Of a DNA stretch of 57,374 bases, positions 5,799 to 57,374 are shown piece by piece. The position numbers and the translations under genes were made by a program. The stretch lies in IMG/VR virus record IMGVR_UViG_3300006805_000034, positions 1-57,374 of that record; one strand, written 5' to 3'. The DNA comes from a virus (taxonomy: Duplodnaviria; Caudoviricetes). Each line of letters begins with the position of its first letter. Position 1 is the stretch's first letter. The notes under the pieces are model-generated. The model did no database searches and was not told the origin of the DNA. It worked only from the letters and a program-made list of their open reading frames with translations.

Positions 5799-6091
5799 TG
5801 AATGACGCTGCTTTGACTTCTCTTGAACCGGAGCCGGCTAAAGCCGGGACTACACTACTGGGAGCCGGAGTGGCGCTGGAGCCTTGGCTGCGGCTGTGCG
5901 CGGGGAATGGGGAGTTGCTGGCGAATTATGATCGGCTGCGGGGCACGAACCTGGGTGGCCGGGGGACGCCCATTGATCGGATGATTGATGAGGCGACGGG
6001 AAAGCTGGAAGAGGAGGCGCTGGGGTTCTTTGACTGGTGCCGGGAGATGTTTGAGCGGCTGCAGTGGGAGGCGGCGGCGGCGGATGGATAG
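5798..6091 (+). CDS. Hypothetical protein with in-frame REP-A
   Basis: ORF carries EPAKAGTTLL. Confidence 0.6.
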   Translation: MNDAALTSLEPEPAKAGTTLLGAGVALEPWLRLCAGNGELLANYDRLRGTNLGGRGTPIDRMIDEATGKLEEEALGFFDWCREMFERLQWEAAAADG

Positions 6092-6183
6092 TCATCCCAG
6101 ATGGAGGAAGATTTTTGAACCACGGAAGACACGAAAGACACGGAAATTTGAACCACTGACTGGGAACAACTGAACACTGACTT

Positions 6184-7128
6184 ATGAAAACACCCGATTA
6201 CGAACACCTTGCGAGAATTCACCAAAATGCTGCTTCAGCGGCGCACGATGGAGAAACTGCCATTACTCCATGGGAACTCGTGGAGGGTGGGGTGCAGAAA
6301 GCCCGGATTGATGGGATGCAGGCTGCGATTGAGGAGTATGAGCGTCTGCGGATGGAGCAGGCTGCGGAGGGGATGCCGAGTGTGGAGGATTGTGTCAGGC
6401 TGTGGCATGAATGCCCTGGGATCAATGCAGGAGTGGCGGCTGTCCGAGCCCTCATTATTTCTGCGTTTGCGCGAAAGATGGGGGCTGACAACACAGGCAA
6501 CTGGGCTGCTGCGGCAGCCCAAGATTTGACGGCAGCAAAGCAAGAGATTGCTAATCTGACTGCCAGGTTTGAAGCCTGCGACCAAGCCCGGAAGAACGCC
6601 TGTGATGACCGAGATGCCGCCCGGGCGAAGCTGGAAAAAGCGGGACATTTAGCGTGGGGGTGGAGAGCCTTGCACGGGGGTCCGGAGACGAGATCGGTGC
6701 TGAACGGCTGCGCGGATGGACTGGAAAGAATTCTAAAAGCGGGGGCTGCGGTGGAGGAGTCCGAACAGAGGAAGGCAAAAAAATGTTTGGAAACTGCTTT
6801 GCAGGTGGAACGGCAGTTGCGTGAGGTTGCGGAGGGGCGGCTGGCGGAGATTGCGAAGCTGCCGGCGAAGTGGAATAACACGCCATGTGGCAGTGGACTA
6901 GCCGGTCAGATATACCGAGAGCAACTTAGCGAGTGCGCCAAGGAACTTAGGGGCATCATCAATTCAGAACTGGCCGCCGAGGAAGTGAGCCGGGCGGAGT
7001 TTGAGGCGGAATGGAGGGTCTATTGCCCTGGTGATGATTTTACCGTCGATGAAAAAGTCGCTGCCTGGCACATGTGGCAGGCACGCGCCGCCAAGGAGGA
7101 GCGGAAGCCGGAACACGCTGAAGCGTGA
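6184..7128 (+). CDS. Hypothetical coiled-coil protein
   Basis: 314-aa ORF; stop codon lies inside a REP-B copy. Confidence 0.7.
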   Translation: MKTPDYEHLARIHQNAASAAHDGETAITPWELVEGGVQKARIDGMQAAIEEYERLRMEQAAEGMPSVEDCVRLWHECPGINAGVAAVRALIISAFARKMGADNTGNWAAAAAQDLTAAKQEIANLTARFEACDQARKNACDDRDAARAKLEKAGHLAWGWRALHGGPETRSVLNGCADGLERILKAGAAVEESEQRKAKKCLETALQVERQLREVAEGRLAEIAKLPAKWNNTPCGSGLAGQIYREQLSECAKELRGIINSELAAEEVSRAEFEAEWRVYCPGDDFTVDEKVAAWHMWQARAAKEERKPEHAEA

Positions 7129-7182
7129 ACAACGAACGATTAGTCACCCCATTTTTTAACTCAGCATTCCCCGATGATGATT

Positions 7183-8004
7183 ATGAATACGAACACGAAC
7201 ACCAATACACCCAGCAGAACACAGACAGTGACGATGGAGCGGTCCGGCTTGGGCCGAGACCGAGATTTGAGTCAGAGCCAGAGCCGGAACCAGAGCCCGC
7301 TGCAAGGAGGTGATGGGGACGCTCGACCAGAACCGCCTAAAGGCGGGACTGCACTGCTAGGAACCGGAGGACGGAACACGCTCAAGCGTGAACAACGTAC
7401 GGAGGAAGCGGGCAGGAGTGCTCGCGCTCCTCTCATGCAAGGGCGGGGGAGTTTGCAGCCGAAGTGTCCGGTGGGGGTGATGGAGGGTCGGCTGTGTGGC
7501 TGGGTGGACCTGGGGACGCAGCGGGTGCGCTTTGGCAGTGGTGCTGCTGCCGGCGCTGCTGACGCCGGCGCGGGGAAAGGGCTGCGGAAGGTGATGCTGA
7601 CGTTCTGTGTGCGGGGCGCGGCAGGGGAGTCGTGGCGGGTGAGCCGGGAGTTTACGCTGTCCGGCGGGCCGCGCAGTGCGCTGCGGGCGCTGCTGGAGGC
7701 CTGGCGTGGGCAGCCGTATGCGAGTGATGAGGAGGCGTGGCAGGCGGTGCGCAAGCCACTGCGGGTGCTGGAGCGGCAGGGGCTGGTGAGGATCAGCGAA
7801 CGGGCGGGCAAGGACGGTCGGCTGTGGCCGCAGGTGGAGGGGGTGTGGCCGATGCTGAAGGGAGCGCAGGCGCTGCCGCTGCGCTGGCCACCGGTGTATT
7901 TTACGCTGGAGGCACTGTGCCGGGAGACGTTTCAGGGGCTGCTGCCGTGGGTGCAGGCGAAGGTGCGGGCGAGTGAGGAGTGGGGGAGGTTGGCCGCAAA
8001 GTGA
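7183..8004 (+). CDS. Phage replication-associated (NGO0469-like, possibly ssDNA-binding) protein with repeat-derived N-terminus
   Basis: VDLGTQ...KVMLTF...SREFTLS...LRALLEAWRG; roughly the first 85 aa include translated REP A/B/C/D. Confidence 0.6.
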   Translation: MNTNTNTNTPSRTQTVTMERSGLGRDRDLSQSQSRNQSPLQGGDGDARPEPPKGGTALLGTGGRNTLKREQRTEEAGRSARAPLMQGRGSLQPKCPVGVMEGRLCGWVDLGTQRVRFGSGAAAGAADAGAGKGLRKVMLTFCVRGAAGESWRVSREFTLSGGPRSALRALLEAWRGQPYASDEEAWQAVRKPLRVLERQGLVRISERAGKDGRLWPQVEGVWPMLKGAQALPLRWPPVYFTLEALCRETFQGLLPWVQAKVRASEEWGRLAAK

Positions 8005-8544: not shown

Positions 8545-8710
8545 AACCGGAACCGCCTGAAGGCGGAACTACACTACGAAGAGCCGGAGGCGGACACGCT
8601 TAAGCGTGAACAACTTACGGGGGACCGGAGCCGGTTAAAAACCGGCGCTCCCAGTGGGGAATCCGGACACGCTGCTGCGAAGCCGCGAAGCGAACCGTGA
8701 ACAACATACG
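8545..8710 (-). repeat. Intergenic REP cluster A-B-C-extended B
   Basis: Hairpins at 8553, 8594, 8628, 8667. Confidence 0.85.
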
Positions 8711-9280: not shown

Positions 9281-9358
9281 GGGGGAAGCTTAGGCATGGG
9301 GCGGAAAAGTCAAGGGGAGGACGGAAGCGGTTTTGTAATGGGTGAGTGGGGAGCCGGA

Positions 9359-9444
9359 ACACGCTGCTGCGTGAACAACGTGTCGCCGGAACCGCCTGAA
9401 GCCGGGACTGCAATACTTCCGGAACACGCTGAAGCGTGAACAAC
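9359..9444 (-). repeat. REP cluster B-A-B
   Basis: Copies at 9359, 9392, 9424. Confidence 0.85.
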
Positions 9445-9461
9445 GTACATTGAACAACGTA

Positions 9462-9479
9462 CGGCGTGGACATGCGTTG
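9462..9479 (+). promoter_or_regulatory. Late-promoter motif CGGCGNRGNNATGCGTTG, copy 1 of 6
   Basis: Also at 12201, 31370, 34221, 39340, 42370, each before a morphogenesis block. Confidence 0.7.
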
Positions 9480-9510
9480 ACGGGGGCTGGGGCTGGGGTG
9501 ACTGCTGGGC

Positions 9511-12043: not shown

Positions 12044-12045
12044 GG

Positions 12046-12190
12046 GCTGGATGCTGGATGCTGGATGCTGGAACCGGAGGTGGACAGGATTGACAGAATT
12101 CCAGCATTTCAGGATTGGGAACGGAGTCGGAGCCGGCTGAAGCCGGGACTACAATACCCGGAAGCCGGAACACGCTGAAGCGTGAACAAC
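12046..12190 (+). repeat. Repeat cluster: GCTGGAT heptamers, family G, REP-A, REP-B
   Basis: Direct reading between terL and the next operon. Confidence 0.85.
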
Positions 12191-12269
12191 GTACGGGATG
12201 CGGCGGAGAAATGCGTTGTTGAGGGGTGGGTGGGGGTGTTGAATGGTGGGGAACTTTTTTTTACCTGAT

Positions 12270-13796: not shown

Positions 13797-16700
13797 ATGC
13801 CTGCTGATCTGAACTACCTGCTCCAAGCCCGCCGCAATCGCTACGCCCAACCTGCCGGAGGAGCGCGTGCGAGCAGCCCTGAAGACCCTCGGGCTGCGGT
13901 GGAGGAGGAGGCGTTTCAGGCGGAGTCCAAACGGCTGGCGCTGGCGGCGAAGGAGCAGGAGGCAGCGGCTGAAGAGGCGGCCAAGGCCTATGAAAAAGGG
14001 CGCAGGGATGCTGACAAGGAAGCGTTGCGGGCGCGCAACAACGAGATGGAAGCCAAGGCCCGGCGCGAGAAACGGCCGATCTACACGGATGCCGACGGCG
14101 TGATCCAGAGCCAGTACACGGATGACGAGTGGCAGGCACAGAAACAGCGCAAGGCCAAGAATGACCAGTTGCGCACGCGGTATTTCAAGGAGCAGCGCCC
14201 GTGGGTGGAAGATGCCGACGGCAACCTGGTGACGCGGCACACGGATGAGCAGTGGCAGGCGATGCAGGCGGAAAAAGTGGCCAAAGAAAAGGCTAAGGTG
14301 ATCGACGACCAAGCGAAGGACTGGCGCGAGCAGAAGGGCGCGGCGCTGACGGCGGTGGATGACCAGACAGCGCAGGTGATGCGTGGGCTGGATCTGGACG
14401 GGCAGGACCTGGGGCTGAGGCACAAGGCCAAGCTGGACACGGTCAAGAAGGCGAATGCGCAGATCAAGCTGCTGGAGCAGGAGATCGAGAACGGCGAGAC
14501 CGAAGCGGGTCAGATTCTGGATGGAGCGGCGATTGCCAAGCGCACGGCGGCACGCCAGGCGCTGGTGGGGGAGCGTGACAAGGTGCAGGCGGAGGCGGAC
14601 GAGGCGGAGGCCAAGCTGCGGGCGCATGAGGTGCGCAAGCTGGAGTACAGTCGGGCCAACAACGAGGTGCAGGGCTGGCTGCAGAGGGAGAAGCATGGGC
14701 TCAAGACGGCGCTGCCGCCGGTGGTGATGGGGGTGAAGGGGAGGGAAGAACCGGCTAAAGCCGGGACTACACTACCCGGAGGCCGGAACCAGAGCCAGAG
14801 CCCGTTGCAAACTGGCGCTCCCAGCCCGGAAACCGGAGGCCGGAACACGCTGAAGCGTGAACAACGTACGCCGGAGGAGGCGGTGCGCAGGGCGGTGATG
14901 GAGGGGCGGATTTCGGCGCTGGCGGAGGATGATTCTTTGTCGGACGAAGAGAGGGCGGTGAAGCTGACGCGGCTGATGTTGCAGCGGGATGATCCGGCGG
15001 CGTATGAGACGCAGGTGCTGCAGGAGTTTGAAAGTCTGGATCCAGAACAACTCAATGCGACGCTGGACGGGCATTTGCAGGATTTCGAGATGCGCAAGCA
15101 GGACTGGCAGTCGCGCCGGGATGCGCTGCGGGAGCAGACCCAGGCAGTGAATGCCGAGGTGGATGGCGTGCTGGCGCGCAATGCGCAGCGGCTGCAGCAG
15201 CCGCACAAGGCGGCGGACTTGATTGAGTACACCACGGCGGACGGTGGGAAAGTGAGTGTGTTCAAGGATCTGGCGCCGCAACTCGAGCAGGCGCAGGAAA
15301 AGGCGGGCACGTTTGAGAAGCAGAATCAAGCGCAGATGGACCAGATCAACGCCGAGGGCGGGGAACTGGAGCGGGCGGCGAAACTCATTCACGCCGGCGG
15401 AGGTGTGTTCCAAAAAAAGCAGGAAGGGGCCCGCGTGGCCGCCAAGGCTGAACGGCAGAAGGTCTATGAGCAGCTCAATGCCATCCCTGGCGCGAAGCTG
15501 GGCGATGAACTGGCGGCGGTGGATGCCGCGGTGGAAAAGCACCAGGGCGGGGATGATGTGAGCCTGCAGGAGTGGGCGGCGAAGGAGCGGGAGAAGATTG
15601 CGGCGAAGGCGGAAGATGTGCAGAAGAAAGTGGGACCGGCGGTGCAGGAAGCCTATGCGGCGGCCAGTGCCAAGATGCCGGCGGGTGTGGACCTGAACGG
15701 GGAACTGGACCGTGATCCGCTGGGGCTAGAAGGCCCGGCATCCGAGGCAGGAGTGACCAAGCTGCTGGAAAAGATGGGGCTGCCATCGTCGAAAGAGAAC
15801 CGTCAAATGGCGGTCAAGATGCTGCGAGATGCGGCGGTGTTGGACTGGAGTCGAGGAGACACCAGCGCTCCGGTACGTACGGACAGTGCGGGTCGGGTGC
15901 TGGTGAATCCTGAGCGCTGGACGGATGGCGAGGCGTATGCCGAAGCCGTGGCCGGGGCGGGCGCGAGTGAGGCGGAGAAGGCCAAGGCGCTGAAGATGCA
16001 GCCGGAACTCAAGGCGCAGGCGATCAAGCTGAAGCTGGACACGCTGCGGCCGCTGGGGGTGTTTCGCGAGTGGGAAGAGGCCGAGGTGCCACCAACGCGC
16101 GAGGAGAAGATGCAGGCGCGGGCCAATGGCACGCAGGCGGTGCCGCGCAAGCTGCATGAAGGTTTGAGTGATGAGGAGAAACTGAAGCTGTTTGAGAAAG
16201 AAAACAGCGGGGTGTTCAGCACCGGAGCGTGGAAGGTGCGCTGGAATCAGGCCTTGCTTGGGGCCGTGCAGGGAGTGATCGGGCTGGCGCAGAGTGCCAC
16301 GGGGATTGCCGCACCGTTCAGCGATACAGCGCTGGATCTGAATCGGAGGTTTGGCCAGGACGCGGCGCAATTGGGCGCGGCCAGTCAGGCGCTGCCGACC
16401 GGGCAGTGGGTGAATCAAGGAGCGAGCATGCTGGTGAGCAGTGCGCCGTCGCTGGCAGTGGGGGGCGCGGTGGGCGCGGCCACCCGAAGCGAAATGCTGG
16501 CGCTGCAAGGCGCGGCGGCGGGTGCTGGACTGCAAACGTTTGGACAGGTGTACGGCGATGCGGTGCAGGGCTCCATGCAGAACAAGGGCATGACCAAGGA
16601 CGAGGCGCGCCAGGCGGCGCTGGTGCCGGCGCTGGCGAGCGGGGTGTCAACCTATGCGTTGACAGCGGCGGGCGGCACGAACGGCATGGAAAGCGCGCTG

Positions 16701-19700
16701 CGTCAGGAAGGGTTCAAACAAGGGCTGAAGCAATGGCTGACAACGGTGGGCAAGGGCGCGCTGAAGGAAGGCGTGCTGGAAGAGGGGCCGGATCAGTTGA
16801 TTCAGGGCGTGATTGCCCGGCACAGCTATGACCCGACGAAGAGCTGGGCGAGCATTTGGGAAGAGACGGCGACGGCGGTGATCGGCGGGGCGCTGATGGG
16901 TGGGGCGTTTGAGATGATGTCGGGCGGTGGAGGTACGTCTCAAAATGGCAAAGGAATGGAGGAGCAAGGGAATGGGGGAACTGGACAGGCTGTGGGGCCG
17001 GAACCAGTCGTCACCCCAGTGGCGGAAACTGAGCCGGTTGTGGCTCGCCCGGAACCGGCTGAAGCCGGGACTACACTACTGCCGGAAACCGGACCGGACA
17101 CGCTTAAGCGTGAACAACGAACAAAAGAGGCGGAGGCGGAGCTGGCGGGGTTTGCGCCGGAGGGGATGTCGGCGGCTGCGGTGGCGGCCACGAAGGCGAA
17201 GGCGGAGGTGCTGCTGCGCATGGCGCAGGGGGAAACGCTGGCTGATTTTAACGATGAAGAGCTGCGTCAGGTGGGGCTGAATCGAGACGGGACGCCGGGG
17301 CATTATGAGTCGGTGCCGGTGGACAAAAAGAATCCGCAGGCGGGACGCACGAGCGTGTGGAAGAAGGGTGTGCGAGCGGATGGGTTTCAGCCGGTGGTGG
17401 TGGAGGACGGGGAACTGATCATAACGCAGCGTCAGATTGACAACCTGGGCGTGCGGTTGCCGGCGGTGGCGGCGCGGATCGGGAAAAGCGAGGTGGAGCG
17501 GAGGCGAGAGATTGCGGGGAAGGGGGCGCTGATTTCTGGCAAAGGAATGAAGGATCAAGGGAATGCCGGAACCGGAGTGGAGGGCCGCAAAGAAGCGCAA
17601 GAACCGGAGAAAAAAGGGTCAGAGGCCGGAGGTGGACAGGATGGACAGGATTCCAGAATTTCAGGATTGAGGACGGAACTCGCGGCGGCGGCGGCTGCCG
17701 AGTCTAGCCCCGTGGTGGCTAGCCCGGAACCGGCTCAAGCCGGGACTACACTCCTGCCGGAGGACGGAACCGGAGCGGACAGGAGTGTCCGCGCTCCTGT
17801 TGAAGCGGTGGGGTTTGATCCGGCGGTGGAGCGGCGGGTGGATGAGATTGGGGCGGAGCTGGCGGGCCGTGGACTGAGCGGGGAGCAGGCGCTGAGGGCG
17901 GCGCGTGGGGTGGTGGGGCGCATGGGCGTCATGGGGCCGAAGTATGAGGTGCAGATGATCGACCCGGCGTTTGAGGAGGCGATGAAAGCGGAGGGATTTC
18001 AGCGGGATCCGGCCAAGATGTCGCGGTGGATGGCGCGTGGGCAGTTCAAGGCGGAGACGCGGGGGGAAAAGCCGGTGATGCGGAAGGCGGAGGGTGCTAA
18101 GAGTGGACCTGGGGTGGCTAGCCCGGAACCGGCTGAAGCCGGGACTACAATACCCGGAGGCCAGAGCCAGTTGCAAACTGGCGCTCCCAGTACGGAGGCG
18201 GGCAAGAGTGCCCGCGCTCCGCTCATTGAGCGCGGTGACTGGAAGCAGGCGAAGGGGGAAGTGATTGGGGTGATGCAGGGACGTGCGAAGGGGCTGCCGG
18301 AGGCGGGGAAGAAGGCGGCGGGGGACAAGATCAAGGCGGTGGTGAAGCGGTTCAACAAGCTGGAGGAGCTCATTGACACAAAGTTTGGACGTCTGTTTGA
18401 GGGCGTGCGGATTGTGCCGAATGGGAGTTCAGGCGGCGGTGGGCTGGCAGCGCAGGTGACGGGCTACGATGCGCAGGGCCGTGCCACGGGTGTGGAGCTG
18501 GTGGTGGATGCGGCGACGTTTGCGGAAGCGGGCGGCGTGACGGATTCTGAACTCGAGCGTGCGCTGAATGAGGAGTGGCAGCACCGCGCGGACCTGATGG
18601 TGATGAGCCGGAGCGAGGCTATTGCTTTGGCGCGGGACATTCATGCGGCGCAGCCGGGGGTGTTTAACTCGGCGTGGAAGCAGTACTTTGCGGTGTATAT
18701 CAACGCGGGAAGCAAGCCAGCCAAGCCGCCGGTGGAACTGACCGATGACGAGGCTTACATGATGTATTTTGAGGCCAGCCGCATGATCCGCCAAGGGACG
18801 TTCACCAGTGAGAATGCGGCGATTCGTGACGTGGGGCTGCTGCAACGCATGTACCTGATGCTGAGCCGGTACGTGAATTTTGTGAAGCGCGAGATGAAGA
18901 AGCTGCCGCAGGATCTGCGCGAGCTGTGGGAGGACAAGCTGACAGCAGCGGAAGCGGTGATGCGCAAGACGAAGGAGGCGGGGATTCGGTTGCAGAAGGA
19001 AGGCTTGGATGACGTGGAGCCGCCGGAGGGATTGCCGCAAAAAGGCGCAAAAACTCGCAAAAAAGAGGAAGTTAATGAGGATGAGGAAGCCATGGCGATG
19101 GCGGCGGATGCTGAGATGGATGTGCGGCCCGAGCGGAAGGGGGCGCTGCGGAATCCGGGTGAGAATGCAATTCGGGGCATGGCGGCCATTCCTGACCCGG
19201 ACAACGGCAAGGAAAACGTGGTGGTGTGGATCAATCGCTACCATGGACGCATCACGCGGCCGTCCAAGGGCTGGCTGGAACGCATGGCGCAGGACGGCAA
19301 GGACCGCTCAAAAATTGGCGACTGGGATGACATTCGGCAGGCGGAGATCCCGAGCTTTTATGCGGGGCTGGTGTTCAAGAACGGCAACGGCAGCACGCTG
19401 GACCAAGCACTGCAGGAGCTGCATGGCCTGGGGTATTTCCCCGGCGTGGCCGCTGAGGATGTGACCGGCGAGATGCTGGCCCGCAAGATCAAGGACGTGA
19501 TCCAACGCTACCAGGGCAAGAAGCAGGGCGGCGCCACAACGGTGCAGGATGAGGAGCAGGCGCATTTTGAGCGGATGGAGAAGCAGCGGGTGGAGTTTGA
19601 GCGCAGCACGTCCAAGGGGCCGATCTACGTCAAGCCGCATGAGATGCAGCCCGGTGACGTGATGATGGTGAAGGCCGATGATGGCAAGATGCACCGAGTG

Positions 19701-24400: not shown

Positions 24401-27400
24401 GCAGCGGAGCCATTCCAGGATTCCAGTTTGAAAGTGCTGACAAACGCGATGCGTTCGTGGGTGGGTACACAGAGTCGGCACCTTTGAGCAGCCCGAGGAA
24501 GCAGATGCCGATTTTGAAGACGATTGAGAAGGTGCAGGAGTGGTCTCAAGCGGAGAACAAGAAAGAGGTGCTGGATCAACTGCCGGAGGATTTGCAGGCG
24601 AAGATCGAAGCGGATGAGCGCTGGCAGTGGCTGGAGAAGCATGATGCGAGCGAGGAGTTTGCGCCGTGGTATCCAGAGCCCTACCGGACGGCAAGTCGGG
24701 TGTATGCCGACCTTTCAGCGCGTCAGGCGGCAGATGAAGAGCTGACGGCCGCTGAAGACAAGGCGATGGACAAGGCGCATGACAAGCTGCTGGCCTGGGA
24801 GATGGCCGGCGGCCCGTGGAATCATGTGCTGGCGACGTATGAGCCGGAGATTGAGGCGCGGATGAAAGAAGTGATTGCGCAGATTGAGGCGACGGGGCGC
24901 TGGGAATGGGACAAGCGGGAGAGGGCGTTTGTGGCGACGGATGAGGACAATGAGCAGGTGCTGTACAGTCCGAGGAAGCAGGGGGGTGCCAAGACGGAGA
25001 AAGAAGTGTTTGATCACCGGCTGGCGGTGGCAAAGGCGGAGATTGAGAAGGACATGAGCGAGGGCGTGGTGCCGCGTGGAGTGCGTTCTTTTGCGGAACT
25101 GCATGACTCGGTGGATGCCAATGAGTACGTGAATGACAAGGAGCGGCCCGACCGGATGATTGGCCCGATGGGCACGGCGCAGGGCTGGCGTGCTCAGGAG
25201 TATGTGAATTTTACCAATAAGTTGATTGAGGCGCTGGATGAGTGGCTGAAACAAGGGGGTGCGGCCGGAAGCCAGAACACGCTAAAGCGTGAACAACGTA
25301 CGGGGATTGATGAGGCGGCGCATGAGGCGGCGACGTCGCCGAGGAATGATTTGGCGGAGCCGACGGCGGCGCAGAAGGAGGCGGGGAATTATGCCATGGG
25401 GCATGCTGTCATTGGTGGGCATGAGATTTCGATTGAGAATCCGGCGGGGTCGAGGCGCAGGCCGGAGTGGCCGGTGCTGAGGGATCACTATGGGTACCTG
25501 AAGGGCACGAAGGGGCAGGACGGGGACCAGGTGGACTTGTTTGTGAAGCCGGGGACGCCGGCGGACTATGCGGGGCCGGTGCATGTGGTGCGGCAGAATG
25601 TGGTGGAGGGGGGAGATGATGCTGGATCCTTGATGCTGGATGCTGGATCCAGAACCGGAGCCGGAGCGGGCAAGAGTGCCCGCGCTCCACTGAGGGCGAC
25701 GGGGAAGCTGGATGAGTACAAGGTGATGCTGGGGTATCCGACGGCGGCGGAGGCGCGGGCGGCGTATCTGCGCAACTACACGCCCGGCTGGCCGGGGCTG
25801 GCGAAGCTGACGACGCACACGATGCCGGAGTTTGAGGTGATCAAGCGGAGCGTGTTTGGCGGCGATGCGGGGGCGAGGGCGACGGACAAGGCGCTTGCGA
25901 GCGCCCAGAAGCAGGGGCAGGGTGGAGGCATGGCCAATCCCGACAAGGCCGATCAATCTCAAGCCATCCAACCCGCTTTGTTTGCCCGGCTCAAGGGTTC
26001 AAAGACGTTGTATCCTGTTCGTGACTTGGATGATGTGGCCAAAAAAGCCTCATGGATGAAGGTGAGATACCAATCCCGCCCGATAGTCGAGATTGTGACC
26101 AGCGATGGGATTGTGCGAGGGGTGAGTGATGAACAAGGTGTTATTCGTGAACCGAATGGCACCGTGATCTGGAACCCGTTTGATGATGAAAATACCGACC
26201 TGCTGGCGGCACCCCGCAAGCAGGGGAAGGCGCTGGAGATGATGGCGAAGGCGGACTGGGGGCGGATTGACAAGGCTCTTACGGGGCGGCTGGCGCAGGC
26301 GGTGACGGATGCGGCGCAGTGGATCAAGAAGCAGGCGCTGCCGGGTGAGGCGCAGGTGAACCCCGTGGATGCGGCGCTGGAGCTGCTGGCGGGGTGGAGG
26401 GTGGAAGGGCAGGCGGCTATGGGCGGGGTGAAACTGAAGCCAGACCAGAGGCAGGAGCTCATGGCTCAGACCCGGCGGCAGATGCGCCGGGCGTGGAACT
26501 ATGCGCAGCGGCAACTGGTGCCGGATGCCTCCCTGCCGGCGGATGTGCTGGCCAAAAAGCGCGAGATGACGATGAACCAGGGGCTGAGCAATGAGGTGGC
26601 GCTGGACATCGGCAAACGGGCGCTGGCGGGCAAACCGAAGCTGTCCGACCTGGTGGTGGGTGAGGCGCAGCAGAATCCAGAGATCCGGCGCAAGATGTTC
26701 CTGGCGATGAACCCGCGAATTGACAGCGGAGTGACGATGGACAGCCTCAATCCCGAAGAGCGGCGGGTGGCGGAGGCTTTACTGAAGCTGCGCGACGACC
26801 TGGGAAAACGCATGGTGAAGGCGGGACGGATCGGACTGCAGACGTATGAAGCGATGCGGGAGGGCACGAGCCACTACTATGACCATGACGTGAAGCGGGA
26901 GAAATCCCTGCTGCGGCAGATGAGTCTGGGGCTGCGCAACTTGTTTGCCCAGACGGCCACGGCGTATCACATCGTGGACACGCAGACGAAGCAGCCGGAT
27001 GGCAGTCCGGCGCTGGTGATGCACCCTGGAAGCCGGAACCGGCCGACGTATCGCTTTGAGACGCAGGAGCAGATGCGCGGGTGGTACGAGGAGTTCATCA
27101 AGGACCAGATTTTGCAGGCGGCGGAGAAGGGCAACGCCGGGCGCTACCCGTGGATGACGCAGGCGGACAAGGCGGCGCTGATGGGCGTGACGCGGGACAG
27201 CCTGAACAATCCGGGCCGGATGAGCGCCGAGCAGCGCGCGGTGGTGTCGCGCCTGCAGGAGCAGCTCCGGGCCCGCTTTGAGAAGCGGATGCCGCTGAGC
27301 TACGACGAGCACAGCAAGGCGGGGCTGATTGAAGACCCGTTTTACTCGGTGGCCCGACAGATCGCCGAGATGGGGCATGACGTGGCGACTGCGGAGTTTT

Positions 27401-29735: not shown

Positions 29736-29913
29736 AGGAGCAAGGGAATGGACGGAACCGGAGGTGGACAGGATTGACGAGGCGATTCTCGTCCTCGCCC
29801 TGCGGGCTCCTTGCAGTCGTCTGTCTCGCTACCGCTCGGCTCACAGAATTACAGCATTTCAGGATTGGGGATGGAGCCGGAGACGGACACGCTGAAGCGT
29901 GAACAACGTACGG

Positions 29914-36939: not shown

Positions 36940-37008
36940 AGCGTGAACAACAAACCCGGAACCGGAACCGCCTGAAGGCGGGACTACAATACGAAGAGAC
37001 TGAAACTT

Positions 37009-37784: not shown

Positions 37785-37792
37785 ACCCGGAA

Positions 37793-37914
37793 CCGGCTAA
37801 AGCCGGGACTACATTACGAAGAATCCAGAACCCAGAACACGCTGCTGCGCAGCCCCTGAAAGGGAACCGTAAACAACGAACAAAGAACCAGAGCCGGTTA
37901 AAAACCGGCGCTCC
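37793..37914 (-). repeat. REP cluster A-extended B-C
   Basis: Copies at 37793, 37837, 37891. Confidence 0.85.
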
Positions 37915-42461: not shown

Positions 42462-43181
42462 ATGTGGATTTTACGCTACCTCATCCTCGCCACGCGCCAG
42501 CGCTGCAACGCTTTGCTGGACCGGCGCACGCGCATGAATTTTGATCCGCTGCATGGCTGTCCGATGCATGTCTGCGCCGACAAGGCGGAGTGGGATCGGC
42601 GTGGGAGGGAGCAGGTGGCGCAACTGGAGAGTGAACTGCGTCAGGACATCGAGGCTTATCACACGAAGACGGGGGAGAGGCGGGTGATTGCTGGGGAGAC
42701 GATTGAGGTACGGCCCGTGATTGATGGGGGCTTGCGGGAAGTTTGCCCGGAACCGGCTGAAGCCGGGACTACAATACCCGGAGACCAGAGCCAGTTGCAA
42801 ACTGGCGCTCCCAGTACGGAGACGGAGCCCGGAGACCAGAACACGCTCAAGCGTGAACAATGTACGGAAGAAACAATTTTGCCGGAGACTGCGCCCGAGA
42901 CGGAGGCGGTGCCGGCGCATACGGGGGACGCGCTGGTTTCATCGGGAGTTGAGGCGAAAGCCGAGGCTGAGCCTGGCGCGGAACCCACCTTTTTGGGAGA
43001 AGCGGGGCAGGGGGACGCTCGCCCAGAACCGGCTAAAGCCGGGACTACACTACTGCCGGAGGCCGGTGGCCAGAACCAGAGCCCGTCTGATCTGCTGGAA
43101 GTGCCTGAGCCGACACCCCCAACCCCTGAGCCTACTCCCAAGGCCAAGACCAAATCCGCAGGGAAGGCGGGGAAGAAGTAA
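42462..43181 (+). CDS. Hypothetical protein with four in-frame REP copies
   Basis: A 42753, C 42788, B 42841, A 43029. Confidence 0.65.
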   Translation: MWILRYLILATRQRCNALLDRRTRMNFDPLHGCPMHVCADKAEWDRRGREQVAQLESELRQDIEAYHTKTGERRVIAGETIEVRPVIDGGLREVCPEPAEAGTTIPGDQSQLQTGAPSTETEPGDQNTLKREQCTEETILPETAPETEAVPAHTGDALVSSGVEAKAEAEPGAEPTFLGEAGQGDARPEPAKAGTTLLPEAGGQNQSPSDLLEVPEPTPPTPEPTPKAKTKSAGKAGKK

Positions 43182-43184
43182 GCC

Positions 43185-44039: not shown

Positions 44040-44224
44040 GATTCCAGAAGAAGATGGCCGCAAAGAGGCGCAAAAACCGGAGGAAAAAACCAGAGGGGAA
44101 GTCTGTGGCCTGAGCCGCAAGGGGGATATTGAGTGCGCTGAGGCGGAGTCGGGGAATGCTAGGGGGCAAGCTGTGCCTGGATTTTGTCCGAGAGTGATTT
44201 GTTGAACTGAAGCCTGAACCGGAG

Positions 44225-44337
44225 CCGCCTGAAGGCGGGACTACACTGCGAAGAAACTGAACCCAGAACCAGAGCCGGTTAAAAACCGGCGCTCCTAGTC
44301 AAGAAACTGAACCCAGACACGCTGAAGCGTGAACAAC
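44225..44337 (-). repeat. REP cluster A-C-B
   Basis: Copies at 44225, 44272, 44317. Confidence 0.85.
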
Positions 44338-44347
44338 GTACGATTTT

Positions 44348-48518: not shown

Positions 48519-48589
48519 ACAATCCGAGTAATCACCCCAGACAACCGAACCTGCGGGCAGGAGTGCCCGCGCTCCCTTTTAACTGATTT

Positions 48590-52672: not shown

Positions 52673-52701
52673 GGGAGATGTGAGTGGCTTACCGGAACAC
52701 G

Positions 52702-53121
52702 CTAAAGCGTGAACAACGTACGGGGATCAGGCGAGAGGCAGCACGGGGGACGCGAGGAATGGGGCGAGGCGTTTGGGTGTTGCTGCCAGGGGAGGGGAAT
52801 GGTGGGAGTGTGGGGATGGATGATGTGCTGGCCGAGGGCGGCATCAAACCAGCCTTCGAAGACGATGATGCCGCGCCAGCGAAAGAGCTTGTGAGCGAGG
52901 CCGCGGTGCTGGCTGTAGTGAGGGATGAGCCAGTGACCGTGATTGCGCAGGGTTTCCGGGGTGGGCATGCCGCATTCCTGGGACTCCAACCAGGGGCGCA
53001 GGGTGGTTTCCCAGTGCGTGTCACACTGGAATGCGATCTGGGCAGCGAGGGTGGGAAGGGTGTCGAGTCCGCCGGGCTCAAAGTGGGAGAACCGGAGGCT
53101 GGTCTGGGTGGGGAAGTTCAT
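52702..53121 (-). CDS. Hypothetical protein
   Basis: 139-aa ORF in the leftward operon. Confidence 0.55.
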   Translation of the reverse strand: MNFPTQTSLRFSHFEPGGLDTLPTLAAQIAFQCDTHWETTLRPWLESQECGMPTPETLRNHGHWLIPHYSQHRGLAHKLFRWRGIIVFEGWFDAALGQHIIHPHTPTIPLPWQQHPNASPHSSRPPCCLSPDPRTLFTL

Positions 53122-54682: not shown

Positions 54683-54706
54683 GGAGGCAGTGGGTGTGGG
54701 GTGGTA

Positions 54707-55543
54707 TCAGGGCTTGGAGGTGATGTGATGGAAACCGCAGAGAGGGCAGGGGTAGGCGCGGAGGAAGTTGGGCGCGTTGTGCCGGTAGCGGCGGGGCTGG
54801 GCGCCGTACTGCCTTTCATGGCTGGCAGCCTGGGTGCTGCCTTTGAGCCGTTCATTGATGGCGGTTTGCGCGTCCTTGAGATTGGCGTAGCAGTGCTTGG
54901 TGCAGCGCTGGGTGCCATCGGCCTCGACCCGCACCAGGGGAGAGGCCACACCGCCGGTGGCACGCCATTGGCGGAGGTGATCGGACACTTGGGCGCGGGT
55001 GGCGAGATCGGCCCCGTGACCGAGGGCACGCTGCTGCCCGACTTCATGGAGCTCGTAGTGCGGCAGTTCGCCGTAATGGCGCTGGAACCAGCGGCGCTGC
55101 AGTCCGAGGGCTCCGAGAGCGAAGGCGTGCAGACAATCCTCATAGCCGGGCAGGGTGTGCAGAGTGGACATGGACGCCCACGGCCATTGCTGCGTGGGGG
55201 CGCAGGGGTCCAGCGGCGAGACGAAGATGATGGCAGGCGCGAGCGGCAAGTTGGTGGGCAGAGGAAAGCGGGTGAGGTAGTCCGCCACGGGCTGCCAGTG
55301 GGGCCAGGACTGCGCCCAGGGCTGGGCATTGACCCACTGCAGGTAGGCTGGCGGGACGGCGTGGAGATGCTTGCGGGTGTGCTCGCCCACGGGCATGAAA
55401 TCGTGAGGCATGAGGACACGCTGGTGACCGGGGCGGAAGTAGGGGACTTCGGCGGCGGCAGGGAGCTGGGTGGGATCGGGCGGCGGGAGACGCCAGAAGC
55501 GTTCGCGGTTGCGTTGTTCGTTGGAGGTGGACCAGGCGGACAT
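54707..55543 (-). CDS. Multidomain hypothetical (DUF3820-like, DUF4031-like, Zn ribbon)
   Basis: MPVGEH..VPPAYLQW; LHAFA..LGLQRRWFQ..HYEL; YPCPLCGFHHITS. Confidence 0.65.
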   Translation of the reverse strand: MSAWSTSNEQRNRERFWRLPPPDPTQLPAAAEVPYFRPGHQRVLMPHDFMPVGEHTRKHLHAVPPAYLQWVNAQPWAQSWPHWQPVADYLTRFPLPTNLPLAPAIIFVSPLDPCAPTQQWPWASMSTLHTLPGYEDCLHAFALGALGLQRRWFQRHYGELPHYELHEVGQQRALGHGADLATRAQVSDHLRQWRATGGVASPLVRVEADGTQRCTKHCYANLKDAQTAINERLKGSTQAASHERQYGAQPRRYRHNAPNFLRAYPCPLCGFHHITSKP

Positions 55544-55563
55544 GAGGGTTTAAAGTTGCAGGT

Positions 55564-57374
55564 TTAAAGTTTTAAGTTGTCGGAGCCGGAACACGCTGAA
55601 GCGTGAACAACGAGCGCGGACTGGATGCGCTGGGCGATCCAGCGGGCGCAGGGGACGGCCCAGGAGTTGCCGAGGGCTTTGTAGCGGGGGCCGTCCGGGC
55701 TGTGGGCGCACTGGGTGGCGGTGAGCTCGTCCATGCCGAGATCCCTGAGGTAGGCGATGGTTTGGGCGAGGTCGGCGGCTTTGCGCAGGCGGCCGCCTTT
55801 GGAGGGGAGGAGGGTGTAGCCGATGAGGAAGCCTTGCAAAATTTCGCATTCTTCGGGGGTGAGGCGTCGGACGCGCCAGAGGCTTGAGACTGGATGCTGG
55901 ATGCTGGATTCCAGAGGCTGGCTGATAAGGGTGTTGCTGCTGTTTTGGATGGCGGAGCCGGTGCCTTCGCGGATGGTGCCGGCGGTGTCGGTGGGGGTGA
56001 CGACTTCACGCGTGCCTTCACGCGTGCCTTCACGCGTGCCGTGGAGCGTGTAGGCGACGTGTGGGGAGCCGTCGCCGGCTTTGCAAGCGTCTGCTTTAAG
56101 CACTGCGACATCGCTGGGAGCGCCCCCTGTTTTGTTGTCGCAAGTGTAGTAGCGAGGCTCGAAGCTGATGGCTTCCTGGACAGCCACACACGGGGCGGCG
56201 TCACCTTTCCCGCTCTGCCCGCTCTGCGCTTGGAGCGCGTTGACGACATCGCCGGTGTTGCCGCGGCCATTGCGGGCGATGCGGGGCTGGAAAGCGATGG
56301 GGGCAGAGTCAGGAACGGGGTCAGAGACCCCGGCACCTTGGACTGGGAACGCGACGGCGGTGGGATTGTGGGACTGGAGGACGGGTGACAGGTCTTCAGT
56401 GCCAGCGCGCAGGGTGGGGGCGAGATCAGCCGTGGCGTCGGCTCCGTGGTCTTTGGCGGAGAAAGCCACGCAGTGGGGCTTCATGGTGTCGAGGGCTCCC
56501 ACGACTTCACCGAACACCAGCGGCGGGCGGTCGTAGCCGCGGCCATCATCGCCACGCATGCGGGCGGAGAAAGCGATGGGTAATTCGTCCAGACCACCTG
56601 AAGGCGGGACTACACTACTTGGAATGGGGACGAGCGGGGTGCCGCGTCCGGTGCCGTCTTCGCTGGCGTCGAAACCTTCGGCGCGTAACGAATGCGTTAC
56701 ATCGACGAGAAGCGTCTGCCTCTCGTCCAGCGTCGTGTTCGGCCCCTTGTGCATGCGGAGGGTGAGGCAGTTGGCGAGATGGGGGATGAGTTTGGATTCT
56801 TGGCTCTCGTTGTCGGCGTGGTAATTCGTTGTGAGAGGGGCGCAGATTTCAGGGATGGCTTTTGCGGCCGTGGCTACGATGTGATTGGCGCGGGCGTGTT
56901 CGACATCGCTGCCGCCGTCGGTGCTGCGGAGTGTGAGGCAGTTGGCGAGGTGGGGAATGAGGAGGTTTTGCTCGGCGTCTTGGGAGGTGGCAGATCCGGC
57001 GGCTTTGCCGTTGGCGGAGAGAGTGCCGGCAAGGTCTGCGACGATGGTCTGCGGCTGGGTGGGGGCAGTGGTGACGCGGAGGCGGGCTAGTCCGTCATCG
57101 GTCCAGTAGCCTGCGCCGGTTTCGGCGGCGCAGCAGGCTACGACTGGGTCTTGTCCGCGTGTTTCTCCGGTTCTTTCGACTCCTCCGCCACCGCCTTTAG
57201 CGCGTGCGCTAAGGGTGGGGGCAGTTGTTTGCCCCGTTTCTCGGCGCGGCGGAGTATCCCGGCGCAGGCCAGTGAACTCAAATAGAACCGCTGCGGGATC
57301 GAATGCGGGATCAGCACTTGCGACAACGAACACACGCTTGCGTCGTTGGGCCAGTCCGAAATATTGGGCATCGA
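55564..57374 (-). CDS. DNA cytosine-C5 methyltransferase, 5' end outside window
   Basis: DAQYFGLAQRRKRVF at the edge, VRRLTPEECEILQGF, RYKALGNS; long variable region. Confidence 0.9.
   Translation of the reverse strand, partial: DAQYFGLAQRRKRVFVVASADPAFDPAAVLFEFTGLRRDTPPRRETGQTTAPTLSARAKGGGGGVERTGETRGQDPVVACCAAETGAGYWTDDGLARLRVTTAPTQPQTIVADLAGTLSANGKAAGSATSQDAEQNLLIPHLANCLTLRSTDGGSDVEHARANHIVATAAKAIPEICAPLTTNYHADNESQESKLIPHLANCLTLRMHKGPNTTLDERQTLLVDVTHSLRAEGFDASEDGTGRGTPLVPIPSSVVPPSGGLDELPIAFSARMRGDDGRGYDRPPLVFGEVVGALDTMKPHCVAFSAKDHGADATADLAPTLRAGTEDLSPVLQSHNPTAVAFPVQGAGVSDPVPDSAPIAFQPRIARNGRGNTGDVVNALQAQSGQSGKGDAAPCVAVQEAISFEPRYYTCDNKTGGAPSDVAVLKADACKAGDGSPHVAYTLHGTREGTREGTREVVTPTDTAGTIREGTGSAIQNSSNTLISQPLESSIQHPVSSLWRVRRLTPEECEILQGFLIGYTLLPSKGGRLRKAADLAQTIAYLRDLGMDELTATQCAHSPDGPRYKALGNSWAVPCARWIAQRIQSALVVHASACSGSDNLKL
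57138..57374 (-). CDS. Out-of-frame nested ORF, M.EcoHK31I beta-like, partial
   Basis: WPNDASVCSLSQVL..FYLS..CAGILRRAEKRGKQLP. Confidence 0.7.
   Translation of the reverse strand, partial: SMPNISDWPNDASVCSLSQVLIPHSIPQRFYLSSLACAGILRRAEKRGKQLPPPLAHALKAVAEESKEPEKHADKTQS

What the first reader, a model, noticed from the sequence alone, without database searches (positions are those of the whole stretch)
5834..56613. Four REP-like hairpin families, about 44 copies, all on one strand of a phage
Seen: on the minus strand each family reads as a 4-nt foot, 2 nt, then a short hairpin. A = GTAG-TC-CCGGCT-TT-AGCCGG and CCGCCT variants (15: 5834, 7333, 8553, 9392, 12133, 14751, 17055, 17730, 18129, 36968, 37793, 42753, 43029, 44225, 56594). 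B = GTTG-TT-CACGCT-TC-AGCGTG (18: 7113, 7376, 8594, 8667, 9359, 9424, 12170, 14845, 17098, 25277, 29887, 31328, 36931, 37837, 42841, 44317, 52697, 55591). C = GGAG-CG-CC(G/A)GTT..AAC(C/T)GG (6: 8628, 14798, 18164, 37891, 42788, 44272). D = GGAG-CG-CGG(G/A)CAC..TG(C/T)CCG (5: 7408, 17775, 18198, 25666, 48553). Stems covary (CCGGCT/AGCCGG versus CCGCCT/AGGCGG). I found no copy in the opposite orientation, even inside minus-strand genes. Established: foot-plus-hairpin is the REP layout recognised by RAYT (TnpA-REP) HUH nucleases, and REPs usually occur as inverted pairs (REPINs/BIMEs). Inference: head-to-tail mixed-family singlets with strict polarity point to an ssDNA, replication-strand-linked insertion process acting on the phage, with the enzyme supplied in trans; no RAYT gene is visible here.
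Basis: partly seen in the sequence, partly recalled or inferred. Interest (0 to 1): 0.88.

Follow-up and report, generated by a model that had tools for sequence, protein, structure and literature searches.

The report
One-way host REP hairpins in phage
A 57-kb phage of freshwater Verrucomicrobia carries 44 copies of small hairpin repeats that its hosts also carry, all pointing one way, and that direction follows the DNA's strand asymmetry rather than its genes, which may show how such repeats spread.

Summary
There are 15 A, 18 B, 6 C and 5 D copies, all in one orientation and none reversed; shuffled sequence gives 0.

The elements are REP-class repeats shared with Verrucomicrobiaceae genomes. 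There B, A and D occur on both strands, often as inverted pairs. Y1/RAYT-like genes are common in that family: 53 of 61 genomes. The phage has none.

The new result is that orientation follows GC skew, not transcription. In other phage contigs, 93 of 101 unpaired copies agree with local skew. Of 52 copies lying next to homology-supported genes, 26 are antisense and 26 sense, yet 51 agree with skew. The strand reading hairpin-then-CTAC/CAAC is the G-rich one.

Twelve copies sit in frame inside two giant ORFs. Comparison with a relative shows an empty site and turnover within arrays.

A direct RAYT link was found only for family D and D-like repeats. It was not found for A, B or C in 49 RAYT loci.

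Whether the polarity comes from biased insertion or from strand-specific purging is unresolved. This is a new variant of a known kind. Interest 0.72.

The parts
5829..5860 (-). Single A element (hairpin 5834-5847, foot to 5854).
   Evidence: An A stands at the matching site in relative G001.
7109..7139 (-). Single B element. The stop codon of ORF 6184-7128 lies in its 3' stem.
7328..7430 (-). Head-to-tail array A-B-D.
   Evidence: G001 has A-C-E at the same site.
8548..8705 (-). Array A-B-C-B. The last B is a long-loop variant (8668-8705).
9355..9462 (-). Array B-A-B upstream of the small terminase gene. It is absent from G001 (123 nt against 8 nt): an empty site.
12128..12196 (-). Array A-B between the large terminase gene (stop at 12043) and ORF 12243.
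   Evidence: G001 has unrelated sequence here.
14746..14871 (-). Array A-C-B, in frame inside the giant ORF 13797-21494.
   Evidence: G001 has only A here.
17050..17124 (-). Array A-B, in frame inside the giant ORF.
   Evidence: G001 has A-C-E.
17725..17797 (-). Array A-D, in frame inside the giant ORF.
   Evidence: G001 has A-E.
18124..18220 (-). Array A-C-D, in frame inside the giant ORF.
   Evidence: G001 has A-C-E. G005 lacks C here.
25273..25303 (-). Single B, in frame inside the giant ORF 21409-29232.
   Evidence: G001 has an A at this site. Contigs of runs X1 and X2 carry a 12-nt duplication of the foot here.
25662..25688 (-). Single D, in frame inside the giant ORF 21409-29232.
   Evidence: Not in G001.
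29884..29913 (-). Single B, directly followed by a 13-bp-stem hairpin with a T run (29914-29946) that looks like a terminator.
31325..31354 (-). Single B (foot variant AAACAAC) upstream of ORF 31423.
36927..36994 (-). Array B-A. The stop codon of the coding ORF 36547-36939 is the TGA in the B loop.
   Evidence: G001 keeps the A only.
37788..37914 (-). Array A-B(long-loop variant)-C.
42748..42867 (-). Array A-C-B, in an open frame of ORF 42360-43181.
   Evidence: G001 has A-B.
43024..43055 (-). Single A in the same ORF.
   Evidence: conserved in G001.
44220..44343 (-). Array A-C-B just upstream of ORF 44348.
   Evidence: G001 has A-C.
48553..48575 (-). Single D upstream of ORF 48590.
   Evidence: Not in G001.
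52693..52723 (-). Single B.
   Evidence: Not in G001.
55587..55617 (-). Single B, 49 nt upstream of the start of the minus-strand gene 54707-55543.
56594..56614 (-). Single A with a decayed stem (CCACCT/AGGCGG). The copy at the matching site in G001 is also decayed.

Best explanation
The four families are REP-class repeats: a short hairpin with a conserved foot. They belong to the repeat stock of the phage's Verrucomicrobiaceae hosts and have colonised this phage and many other phages of that host group.

Their direction is set by the strand asymmetry of the DNA, not by the genes. The strand that reads hairpin, 2 nt, then CTAC/CAAC/CTCC (the 'iREP' reading) is always the G-rich strand. The strand that reads foot-first (5'-GTAG-hairpin) is the C-rich strand.

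Most likely mechanism (inferred, not shown). During replication the G-rich strand spends more time single-stranded. Host Y1 HUH enzymes (RAYT/TnpA-REP type), acting in trans, place single monomers into that strand. New units land next to the foot of resident units, which would build head-to-tail arrays of mixed families at a few hot spots. A lone iREP-form copy has no foot-first partner on the same strand, so it could not be cut out again, and copies would pile up.

Inside genes only copies that keep the frame open survive. There they are translated as short linkers between conserved blocks of the giant proteins.
For: Shown.
1. All 44 copies share one orientation against 0 expected by chance.
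2. The same sequences are multi-copy in host-family genomes on both strands. B forward/reverse counts are 58/51, 10/9, 20/24, 12/8 and 61/77 in five genomes. A is 5/5 in G007. D is 7/6, 10/14, 9/7 and 2/1. C occurs in 26 of 145 genomes.
3. In bacterial loci 87 B copies sit in inverted pairs. In G006 the pairs have a constant 37-40 nt spacing with the feet outward.
4. Host link through the phage itself: large-terminase relatives occur in 27 of 145 genomes of that family.
5. Y1_Tnp genes occur in 53 of 61 genomes of that family and are flanked by REPs of the same build. The window has none.
6. Family D: an exact D dimer lies 11 nt from a Y1-like ORF with an HVH motif in G007. D-like repeats lie on both sides of Y1_Tnp domains in G007 and G006.
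7. Skew versus transcription. In the window, minus-strand genes at 1500-2375, 4150-4482 and 53942-55543 lie in DNA whose skew stays +0.28 to +0.37.
8. In phage G012 all PHROG-supported genes are on one strand, but the skew flips at 13.65 kb and element orientation flips with it.
9. In other viral contigs 93 of 101 unpaired copies agree with local skew, and 79 of 82 where |skew| exceeds 0.1.
10. Of 52 copies within 3 kb of homology-supported genes, 26 are antisense and 26 sense, and 51 agree with skew (with PHROG checks).
11. Turnover. One site is empty in relative G001. Only 1 of 13 B copies and 0 of 5 D copies have a same-family counterpart in G001, against 11 of 13 A copies (my tally). Yet 13 of 16 B copies are identical over 19 fixed positions.
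12. Density, from my arithmetic (stringencies differ). B is about 0.31 per kb in the phage against 0.015-0.022 per kb in the richest hosts. A is about 0.26 per kb against 0.0014 per kb.

From a paper (passages seen, PMC3333891). E. coli TnpA-REP binds the GTAG-bearing REP but cuts on both sides of the inverted copy (iREP), one cut lying within CTAC. IS200/IS605 excision and insertion favour the lagging-strand template.
Against: 1. No A, B or C copy was found beside any of 49 RAYT loci (20, 29). None lies within 4 kb of the Y1 hits in G006, or within 23 kb of them for A in G007. G010 has 138 B copies but only one Y1 hit, and that hit has no flanking REP.
2. The Y1-like ORF next to the exact D dimer scores only at Pfam's cut-off (23 bits). 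I saw no tyrosine after its HVH motif, so it may be decayed.
3. No clean single-element empty site was found, so the inserted unit and its target are not defined.
4. Arrays have a conserved order: A is first in 10 of 12, and C is never alone. That fits composite units, or inheritance of whole arrays, as well as it fits serial insertion. An A-D tandem also exists in a host genome.
5. That GC skew marks the single-stranded strand is inferred. By simple analogy with IS608, the foot-first strand would be expected on the lagging-strand template, which is the opposite of what is seen unless the iREP form is the strand that moves.
6. The same 20-mer of B occurs in assemblies labelled as other phyla, which is unusual for REPs.
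7. Bacterial single copies follow skew only weakly: 57 against 36.
Confidence: 0.55

Rival explanations
1. Strand-specific purging rather than biased insertion. Copies enter in either orientation or as inverted pairs. A foot-first (GTAG-hairpin) copy on the strand that is single-stranded during phage replication recruits host RAYT, which cuts that strand. Only genomes with iREP-form copies on that strand survive.
For: The same data on orientation and skew fit this reading. Inverted pairs are absent from the window (0 of 44). They are rare in other phage contigs: 14 of 115 copies, all in 4 loci with weak skew. In vitro, a functional REP on circular single-stranded DNA causes cuts at many C|T sites over more than 400 nt (passage seen in PMC3333891).
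Against: Host chromosomes tolerate foot-first copies on both strands and many inverted pairs. Purging alone does not explain the much higher density in the phage than in hosts, nor head-to-tail arrays at hot spots. None of the 17 copies without a counterpart in G001 (12 B, 5 D) is in the 'wrong' orientation.
Confidence: 0.2
2. Polar signals kept by selection for a function that depends on fork direction. Examples would be Chi-like sites that stop an end-processing nuclease, or translocase-orienting sites. Such sites are co-oriented with replication in bacteria.
For: Orientation tracks GC skew and flips where the skew flips. Density in phages is far above that in hosts. A B copy with a conserved upstream TGTCAAA context recurs in about 13 loci of the 35-kb phage group, the loci that hold the copy next to the skew switch.
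Against: In host genomes about half of the B copies are inverted pairs, and single copies follow skew only 57 to 36. From recall, Chi and KOPS are short and not palindromic, and no hairpin-type site is known. Four or five unrelated hairpin families would have to serve the same role. Copies decay at some sites (56594).
Confidence: 0.08
3. RNA-level elements of the phage's own transcripts, such as stabilising or processing hairpins or terminators, that are co-oriented with the genes.
For: In the window nearly all copies are sense to the + strand genes and many sit at gene ends. Some supply stop codons. REPs are thought to act in mRNA in bacteria (PMC3733652, passages seen).
Against: In other phages the same families are antisense to homology-supported genes as often as sense (26 against 26). 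There is no T run after the hairpins. Rfam gives no match at gathering thresholds. Twelve copies lie inside long ORFs.
Confidence: 0.05
4. Binding sites of a phage-encoded protein, comparable to mycobacteriophage stoperators.
For: They are many, asymmetric, one-way sites spread over a phage genome.
Against: The same sequences occur in unrelated phage groups (57-62 kb and 35 kb, with different terminase families) and in hundreds of host chromosomal sites. Orientation does not follow transcription.
Confidence: 0.03

Closest known systems
REP / BIME / REPIN elements with their RAYT (TnpA-REP) Y1 HUH enzymes. Sources: E. coli and Pseudomonas work; GTAG-tagged repeats of Di Nocera et al. 2013, PMC3733652; Ton-Hoang et al. 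2012, PMC3333891.
   Same: A 20-40 nt hairpin with a conserved tetranucleotide 5' of the foot (family A has GTAG itself). Several families per genome. Multi-copy and mostly extragenic in bacteria. Inverted dimers with the feet outward. Head-to-tail dimers, copies inside ORFs and copies that supply stop codons are all described (passages seen). Verrucomicrobia are named there as carriers of GTAG repeats.
   Different: Here they sit in a phage, at 14- to about 185-fold the host density. They occur only as monomers and head-to-tail arrays of mixed families. They have strict polarity that follows GC skew. The feet of B (GTTG) and of C and D (GGAG) differ from GTAG. A flanking RAYT was seen only for D and D-like copies. 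My searches of the held library listed no paper whose title or abstract start describes REP arrays in phage genomes or REP polarity tied to strand asymmetry. I read passages of only four of the listed papers.
IS200/IS605 single-strand transposition (IS608, ISDra2).
   Same: Hairpin ends recognised by a Y1 HUH enzyme. Action on single-stranded DNA at the fork. An orientation bias linked to replication direction (stated in the introduction of PMC3333891; the primary paper is recalled, not seen).
   Different: The elements here carry no gene. They are 20-40 nt long. The target and the inserted unit are undefined. The strand relation may be the reverse of the IS608 rule.
Rickettsia palindromic elements (RPE) inserted in frame in genes. 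RPE-1 is mentioned in PMC3733652; the rest is recalled.
   Same: Palindromic repeats that persist inside protein-coding genes in frame and are translated.
   Different: RPEs are 100-150 bp and chromosomal. Here 20-40 nt units form arrays between conserved blocks of giant phage ORFs, and the arrays differ between relatives while the frame stays open.
Mycobacteriophage stoperators and start-associated sequences (recalled, not seen).
   Same: Dozens of short asymmetric sites, one-way, across a phage genome.
   Different: Those follow transcription and are specific to a phage cluster. These follow GC skew and are shared with host chromosomes.

Membership tests
REP / REPIN (RAYT-associated repeats) | Short imperfect palindrome with a conserved tetranucleotide (GTAG or a variant) just 5' of the hairpin foot. 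| tested here: met
   A reads GTAG-TC-CCGGCT..AGCCGG. B reads GTTG-TT-CACGCT..AGCGTG. C and D read GGAG-CG-hairpin. The stems keep pairing in two forms.
REP / REPIN (RAYT-associated repeats) | Many copies in bacterial chromosomes, mostly between genes. | tested here: met
   B has 19-138 copies in each of five genomes. A has 10 in G007. D has 3-24 in four of five genomes. C occurs in 26 of 145 genomes. The examples read lie just after stop codons or between genes. A genome-wide intergenic fraction was not measured.
REP / REPIN (RAYT-associated repeats) | Organisation as inverted pairs (BIME/REPIN). | tested here: inconclusive
   Met in bacteria: 87 of 180 B copies in the loci read, with constant spacing in G006. 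Not met in the window (0 of 44) or in G001 (0).
REP / REPIN (RAYT-associated repeats) | Copies of the same family flank a RAYT gene (REPtron). | tested here: inconclusive
   D: an exact dimer lies on one side of a weak Y1-like ORF in G007 (L273), and D-like repeats lie on both sides of Y1_Tnp in G007 (L272) and G006 (L222). A, B and C: none in 49 RAYT loci.
REP / REPIN (RAYT-associated repeats) | Binding and cutting by the cognate RAYT on single-stranded DNA. | not testable with these tools
   Needs purified enzyme and oligonucleotides.
IS200/IS605-like single-strand mobility | Orientation bias linked to the direction of replication. | tested here: met
   Orientation follows GC skew: 93 of 101 copies and 51 of 52, with flips in G011-G013. 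That skew equals replication direction is inferred.
IS200/IS605-like single-strand mobility | Insertion next to a fixed short target, without duplication. | tested here: inconclusive
   Units are preceded by CC(G/A)GA(A/G) and end in (G)TAC(GG). The only clean empty site holds three units, so the borders are not resolved.
Intrinsic terminators | GC-rich hairpin followed by a T run. | tested here: not met
   No T run follows any A-D hairpin. A separate terminator-like hairpin stands at 29914-29946.
Stoperator-type phage repressor sites | Orientation fixed relative to transcription, and specific to one phage lineage. | tested here: not met
   26 antisense against 26 sense. Shared with hosts and with unrelated phages.
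Known RNA families (Rfam 15) | A match at the family's gathering score. | tested here: not met
   0 matches in the window. No tRNA or tmRNA.

The most novel reading that the evidence does not exclude
Phage genomes act as one-way traps that record how REPs move. Host RAYT enzymes cut out the inverted (iREP) monomer and join it into whichever phage strand is single-stranded at the fork. Lone iREP copies cannot leave again, so they accumulate, seed arrays at their own feet, and are even built into giant phage proteins as linkers. Phages would then also be the vehicles that carry identical REP families between distant bacterial lineages.
Probability: 0.3. Interest if true: 0.85.

Novelty: new variant of a known kind. 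Interest (0 to 1): 0.72.

Why it matters
How REPs spread is still open. [quoted passage not shown]

In bacterial chromosomes REPs are mostly inverted pairs, so any strand rule is hidden. In these phages they are monomers with a strict strand rule. There are relatives that differ in copy content and hosts that can be cultured. That turns the question into testable ones: which strand and which unit move, and whether the fork is the site of entry.

The finding also shows that host repeat families can reach very high density in phage genomes and be translated inside giant phage genes. Finally, it points to a strikingly strong GC skew in Verrucomicrobia phages that does not depend on transcription and needs its own explanation.

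Tried and rejected
1. Rfam at gathering thresholds and a tRNA scan of the window found nothing.

2. A megablast of 9000-21000 against GenBank phages found no match.

3. My first coding-strand predictor, based on codon-position GC, failed on known window genes. I dropped it and replaced it with homology-supported genes.

4. RAYT flanks. 20 loci from five genomes and 29 loci from the family held no A-D copy. The 'GGAGCGC' strings seen there are chance matches. A tblastn of RAYT ORFs against all loci found only a RAYT in L176 with other REPs of its own and a B pair nearby but outside them. The single Y1 hit of G010 has no flanking repeat.

5. Family E. It is present in G001 (4 copies) and G005 (1 copy), not in the window. 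It shares a 13-nt hairpin core with REPs that flank RAYTs in three host genomes. The foot and loop orientations do not match simply, so I do not count this as a RAYT link.

6. Single-element sites compared with G001 gave replaced or rearranged sequence, not clean empty sites.

7. Sequencing runs. No RNA holder was listed. The four runs laid are contigs only. Those of X1 and X2 belong to a relative, and several of the pieces listed begin or end at or near repeat arrays (for example at 7374, 12168, 18152, 18168 and 25277). No joint marks a clean excision. Nothing follows from this about expression or about rare variants.

8. VIPR guide arrays (bioRxiv 10.64898/2026.10.15.759431, passages seen) have GGYNN 5-nt repeats plus a 40-nt tail. 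That is not the build seen here, so I rejected the idea.

9. Integron attC sites and T5-type nick sites were considered from recall only. The core motifs do not fit attC. Nicks cannot be tested here.

10. Literature searches listed no paper whose title or abstract start describes REPs in phage genomes with strand polarity; of the listed papers I read passages of only four. The library lacks most subscription journals, and supplementary files were not opened, so REP tables in the supplements of PMC3733652 may bear on Verrucomicrobia families.

11. Not used: structure prediction, fold search, complex prediction, the protein atlas and the large protein searches. No open question here depended on them.

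Full report
**What the window is.** The window is a whole IMG/VR virus record of 57,374 bases, rated 93% complete and linear. It has 61.1% G+C, and its + strand holds 20,878 G against 14,168 C.

It encodes small and large terminase subunits at 9511-10290 and 10346-12043. There is a weak integrase match at the left end, 26.7 bits against a cut-off of 27.1. It also has two giant ORFs.
- ORF 13797-21494 (2,565 aa) has no PHROG or Pfam match.
- ORF 21409-29232 (2,607 aa) has helicase, methyltransferase-like and other domains of the DarB-like giant proteins.

No Y1_Tnp (RAYT/IS200-type) gene is present in any frame.

**The observation.** A regex scan of both strands gives A 15, B 18, C 6 and D 5 copies in one orientation and none in the other. 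With up to 2 mismatches the tool finds 16 B and 15 A matches, all on the + strand, against 0.00 expected in 100 shuffles.

On the + strand it reads hairpin, 2 nt, then CTAC, CAAC or CTCC. As single-stranded DNA, A and B fold into 5-bp stems with 4-nt loops (about -5 kcal/mol), C into a 7-bp stem, and D into a long imperfect hairpin of -14.8 kcal/mol.

Family A has two fully paired stem forms: 9 and 4 copies in the window, 34 and 31 in other viral loci, and 5 and 8 in bacterial loci. Mismatched hybrids are rare.

The 44 copies lie at 23 sites, and 12 of these are head-to-tail arrays of two to four units from different families. A is the first unit in 10 of the 12 arrays, and C is never alone.

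**They are host repeats.** The exact B pattern occurs in 41 stretches of IMG/VR contigs and the A pattern in 22. Most of these are Verrucomicrobiota (Prosthecobacter, Brevifollis, Verrucomicrobiaceae). Some assemblies are labelled Hydrogenedentota, Kiritimatiellae and others.

In five such genomes B is found on both strands in near-equal numbers: 58/51, 10/9, 20/24, 12/8 and 61/77. A is 5/5 in G007. D is 7/6, 10/14, 9/7 and 2/1 in four of the five. With the corrected pattern, C occurs in 26 of 145 genomes of the same family.

In bacteria about half of the B copies are inverted pairs with the feet outward, and the examples I read lie between genes or directly after stop codons. In G006 the spacing is a constant 37-40 nt. 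This is the REP/BIME/REPIN layout.

Large-terminase relatives of the phage occur in 27 of 145 genomes of that family, the best at 53% identity. So the host is very probably a member of it.

**RAYT link.** Y1_Tnp genes of RAYT size are frequent there: 11, 21, 19, 15 and 1 matches in the five genomes, and 53 of 61 family genomes at E <= 1e-15. Many are flanked by inverted composite repeats built as (A/G)TAGCC plus a hairpin, which is the same build as family A.

However, none of the 49 RAYT loci I read carries an A, B, C or D copy. Coordinates in G006 and G007 show no adjacency for A or B.

Only the GGAG-footed class could be tied to such genes.
- In G007, a dimer made of the very D sequences found in the window lies 11 nt from a Y1-like ORF with an HVH motif. 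That ORF scores only 23 bits, at Pfam's cut-off, and may be decayed.
- D-like repeats lie on both sides of Y1_Tnp domains in G007 and G006.

**What sets the polarity.** In the window the test is weak, because most genes share the + strand. Still, minus-strand genes at 1500-2375, 4150-4482 and 53942-55543 are supported by Pfam matches and by third-position substitution patterns against a relative. GC skew there stays +0.28 to +0.37. So skew in this phage is a property of the strand, not of transcription.

Other phages give the decisive contrast.
- In the complete 35.5-kb phage G012, the helicase/methylase, ParB-like, integrase, tape-measure, major head, protease, portal and terminase genes are all on one strand. 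Yet cumulative skew turns at 13.65 kb. The three copies in the negative-skew arm point one way, and the copy in the positive-skew arm points the other.
- In L025, L043 and L068 the copies are antisense to PHROG-supported genes but agree with skew.
- Over all 115 copies in the other viral loci, 14 sit in inverted pairs in four loci. Of the 101 others, 93 agree with the skew of the flanking 1.5 kb, as do 79 of the 82 where |skew| exceeds 0.1. By locus the count is 44 against 4.
- For the 52 copies with a homology-supported gene within 3 kb on one strand only, 26 are antisense and 26 sense, and 51 agree with skew. The remaining 63 copies had no such gene nearby and were left out of that table.

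These loci are not phylogenetically independent, so the p-values printed overstate the evidence. The rule is that the iREP reading lies on the G-rich strand. Bacterial single copies show the same tendency only weakly: 57 against 36, though 11 of 11 agree where |skew| exceeds 0.1, and some of those contigs look like phage DNA.

**Turnover.** G001 is a complete 61.9-kb relative. It is colinear with the window at 69-98% nucleotide identity across alignment blocks, mostly 75-92%. It has its own set of elements, all in the same orientation: A 11-12, C 3-5, B 1, D 0, plus four copies of a fifth family E.

Of the 23 window sites, 19 have colinear anchors in G001.
- The B-A-B array at 9355-9462 is simply absent: 123 nt against 8 nt.
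- Five further sites hold none of families A-E in G001.
- Most others hold an array of different make-up, for example A-B-D against A-C-E, A-B against A-C-E, and B against A.

By my tally, 11 of 13 A copies have an A at the matching site. Only 1 of 13 B copies and 0 of 5 D copies do. Yet 13 of 16 B copies are identical over the 19 fixed positions. So A is old in this lineage, while B and D were gained or exchanged recently, always in the same direction.

**Copies inside genes.** Twelve copies lie inside the two giant ORFs. Four more lie in ORF 42360-43181 and three in the open frame 7144-8004. B has only one frame without a stop, and A always uses the same one of its two open frames.

The first giant ORF is truly coding. 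Substitutions against G001 fall on third positions along its whole length. The frame stays open in G001 (4,553 aa) and in G005 (3,363 aa), even though the arrays differ. The arrays sit exactly between the conserved blocks. They are therefore read through as linker peptides, or at least must keep the frame.

At three sites the stop codon of the upstream ORF lies within a B copy. REPs that supply stop codons and REPs inside genes are described for bacteria (PMC3733652, passages seen).

**Mechanism.**
- Shown: host origin, monomer state, polarity with skew, turnover, and high density. From my arithmetic (stringencies differ), B is about 0.31 per kb against 0.015-0.022 per kb in the richest hosts, and A about 0.26 against 0.0014 per kb.
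- Inferred: skew marks the strand that is single-stranded longest, and host Y1 enzymes act on it.

Passages of PMC3333891 state that TnpA-REP needs the GTAG-bearing REP for binding but cuts on both sides of the inverted copy, once within CTAC. They also state that IS200/IS605 elements use the lagging-strand template. An excised iREP monomer joined into the exposed strand would give exactly what is seen: monomers only, the iREP reading on the G-rich strand, new units next to resident feet, and no way out.

The main rival is purging of foot-first copies from the exposed strand, and it fits the polarity equally well. A Chi-like polar function cannot be excluded. RNA-level or repressor-site explanations do not fit the sense/antisense data.

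**Limits.**
- No RAYT was tied to A, B or C.
- No clean single-unit empty site was found.
- Replication direction is unknown.
- The viral loci are related to one another.
- The conserved order within arrays is unexplained.

**Verdict.** The elements are a new variant of a known kind, REP-class repeats in a new setting and with a new rule. They give a practical handle on the open question of how REPs move.

Noticed in passing
L272 (G007:C4:2940500-2945000) 923-2755 minus; L222 (G006:C5) 433-2523 minus: In two host-family genomes a Y1_Tnp (RAYT-like) domain flanked by D-like repeats sits in frame inside a GT4 glycosyltransferase ORF, between its N-terminal and C-terminal domains (611 and 697 aa open frames). 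Similar ORFs hit in L080 and L117.
   Followed up: partly
Window 1-57374; G011-G013 (L229-L234): The window's GC skew is positive in 27 of 28 2-kb windows and reaches +0.37, whatever the gene strand. Three 35-kb phages (G011, G012, G013) switch the sign of the skew: at about 13.7 kb, next to the integrase gene, in G012 and G011, and at about 28.1 kb in G013, while all supported genes of G012 stay on one strand.
   Followed up: partly
L281 (G076:C12:270000-278000) 3253-3709 and 4438-5098: In a host-family genome, family C is part of 169-170-nt tandem repeat units (2.7 and 3.9 copies) lying in stretches that none of the six ORFs of at least 250 aa covers, all in one orientation. Another contig shows about 184-nt spacing.
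   Followed up: partly
Window 13797-29232; G001: There are two adjacent giant ORFs (2,565 and 2,607 aa). In G001 the open frame that holds the matches to the first giant ORF is 4,553 aa long. The first has no known family. The second has helicase, methyltransferase-like and InPase (PF18823) domains.
   Followed up: partly
Window 29914-29946: A 13-bp-stem hairpin followed by TTTT directly after a B copy looks like a true intrinsic terminator.
   Followed up: no
L010, L011, L013, L016, L024, L026, L028-L030, L033, L041, L043, L044: In the 35-kb phage group one B copy has a conserved upstream context: TGTCAAA, then 6-10 nt, then GGA. These loci include those that hold the copy just beside the skew switch.
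   Followed up: no
Window 9437-9462 and 25290: The foot of B (GAACAACGTAC...) is duplicated in the copy at 9425. A 12-nt duplication of the same foot is present at 25290 in contigs of runs X1 and X2.
   Followed up: no
Window 56007-56038: A tandem 12-nt repeat CACGCGTGCCTT (about 3 copies) lies in the right-end region that shows no codon periodicity.
   Followed up: no
Window 4150-4482 minus; 48590-51647 plus: The phage carries an acyl-carrier-like gene (PP-binding) and a block with glycosyltransferase family 9 and methyltransferase domains.
   Followed up: no
L073, L083, L084, L088, L081 and others: The identical 20-mer of B occurs in assemblies labelled Hydrogenedentota, Kiritimatiellae, Nitrospirales and Alkalihalobacterium. 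This may reflect wrong binning, phage DNA in the bins, or real spread across phyla.
   Followed up: no
L274 (G007:C4:1617800-1619300) 735-785: An A copy and a D copy stand head to tail in the same orientation in a host chromosome, so mixed arrays are not confined to phages.
   Followed up: no
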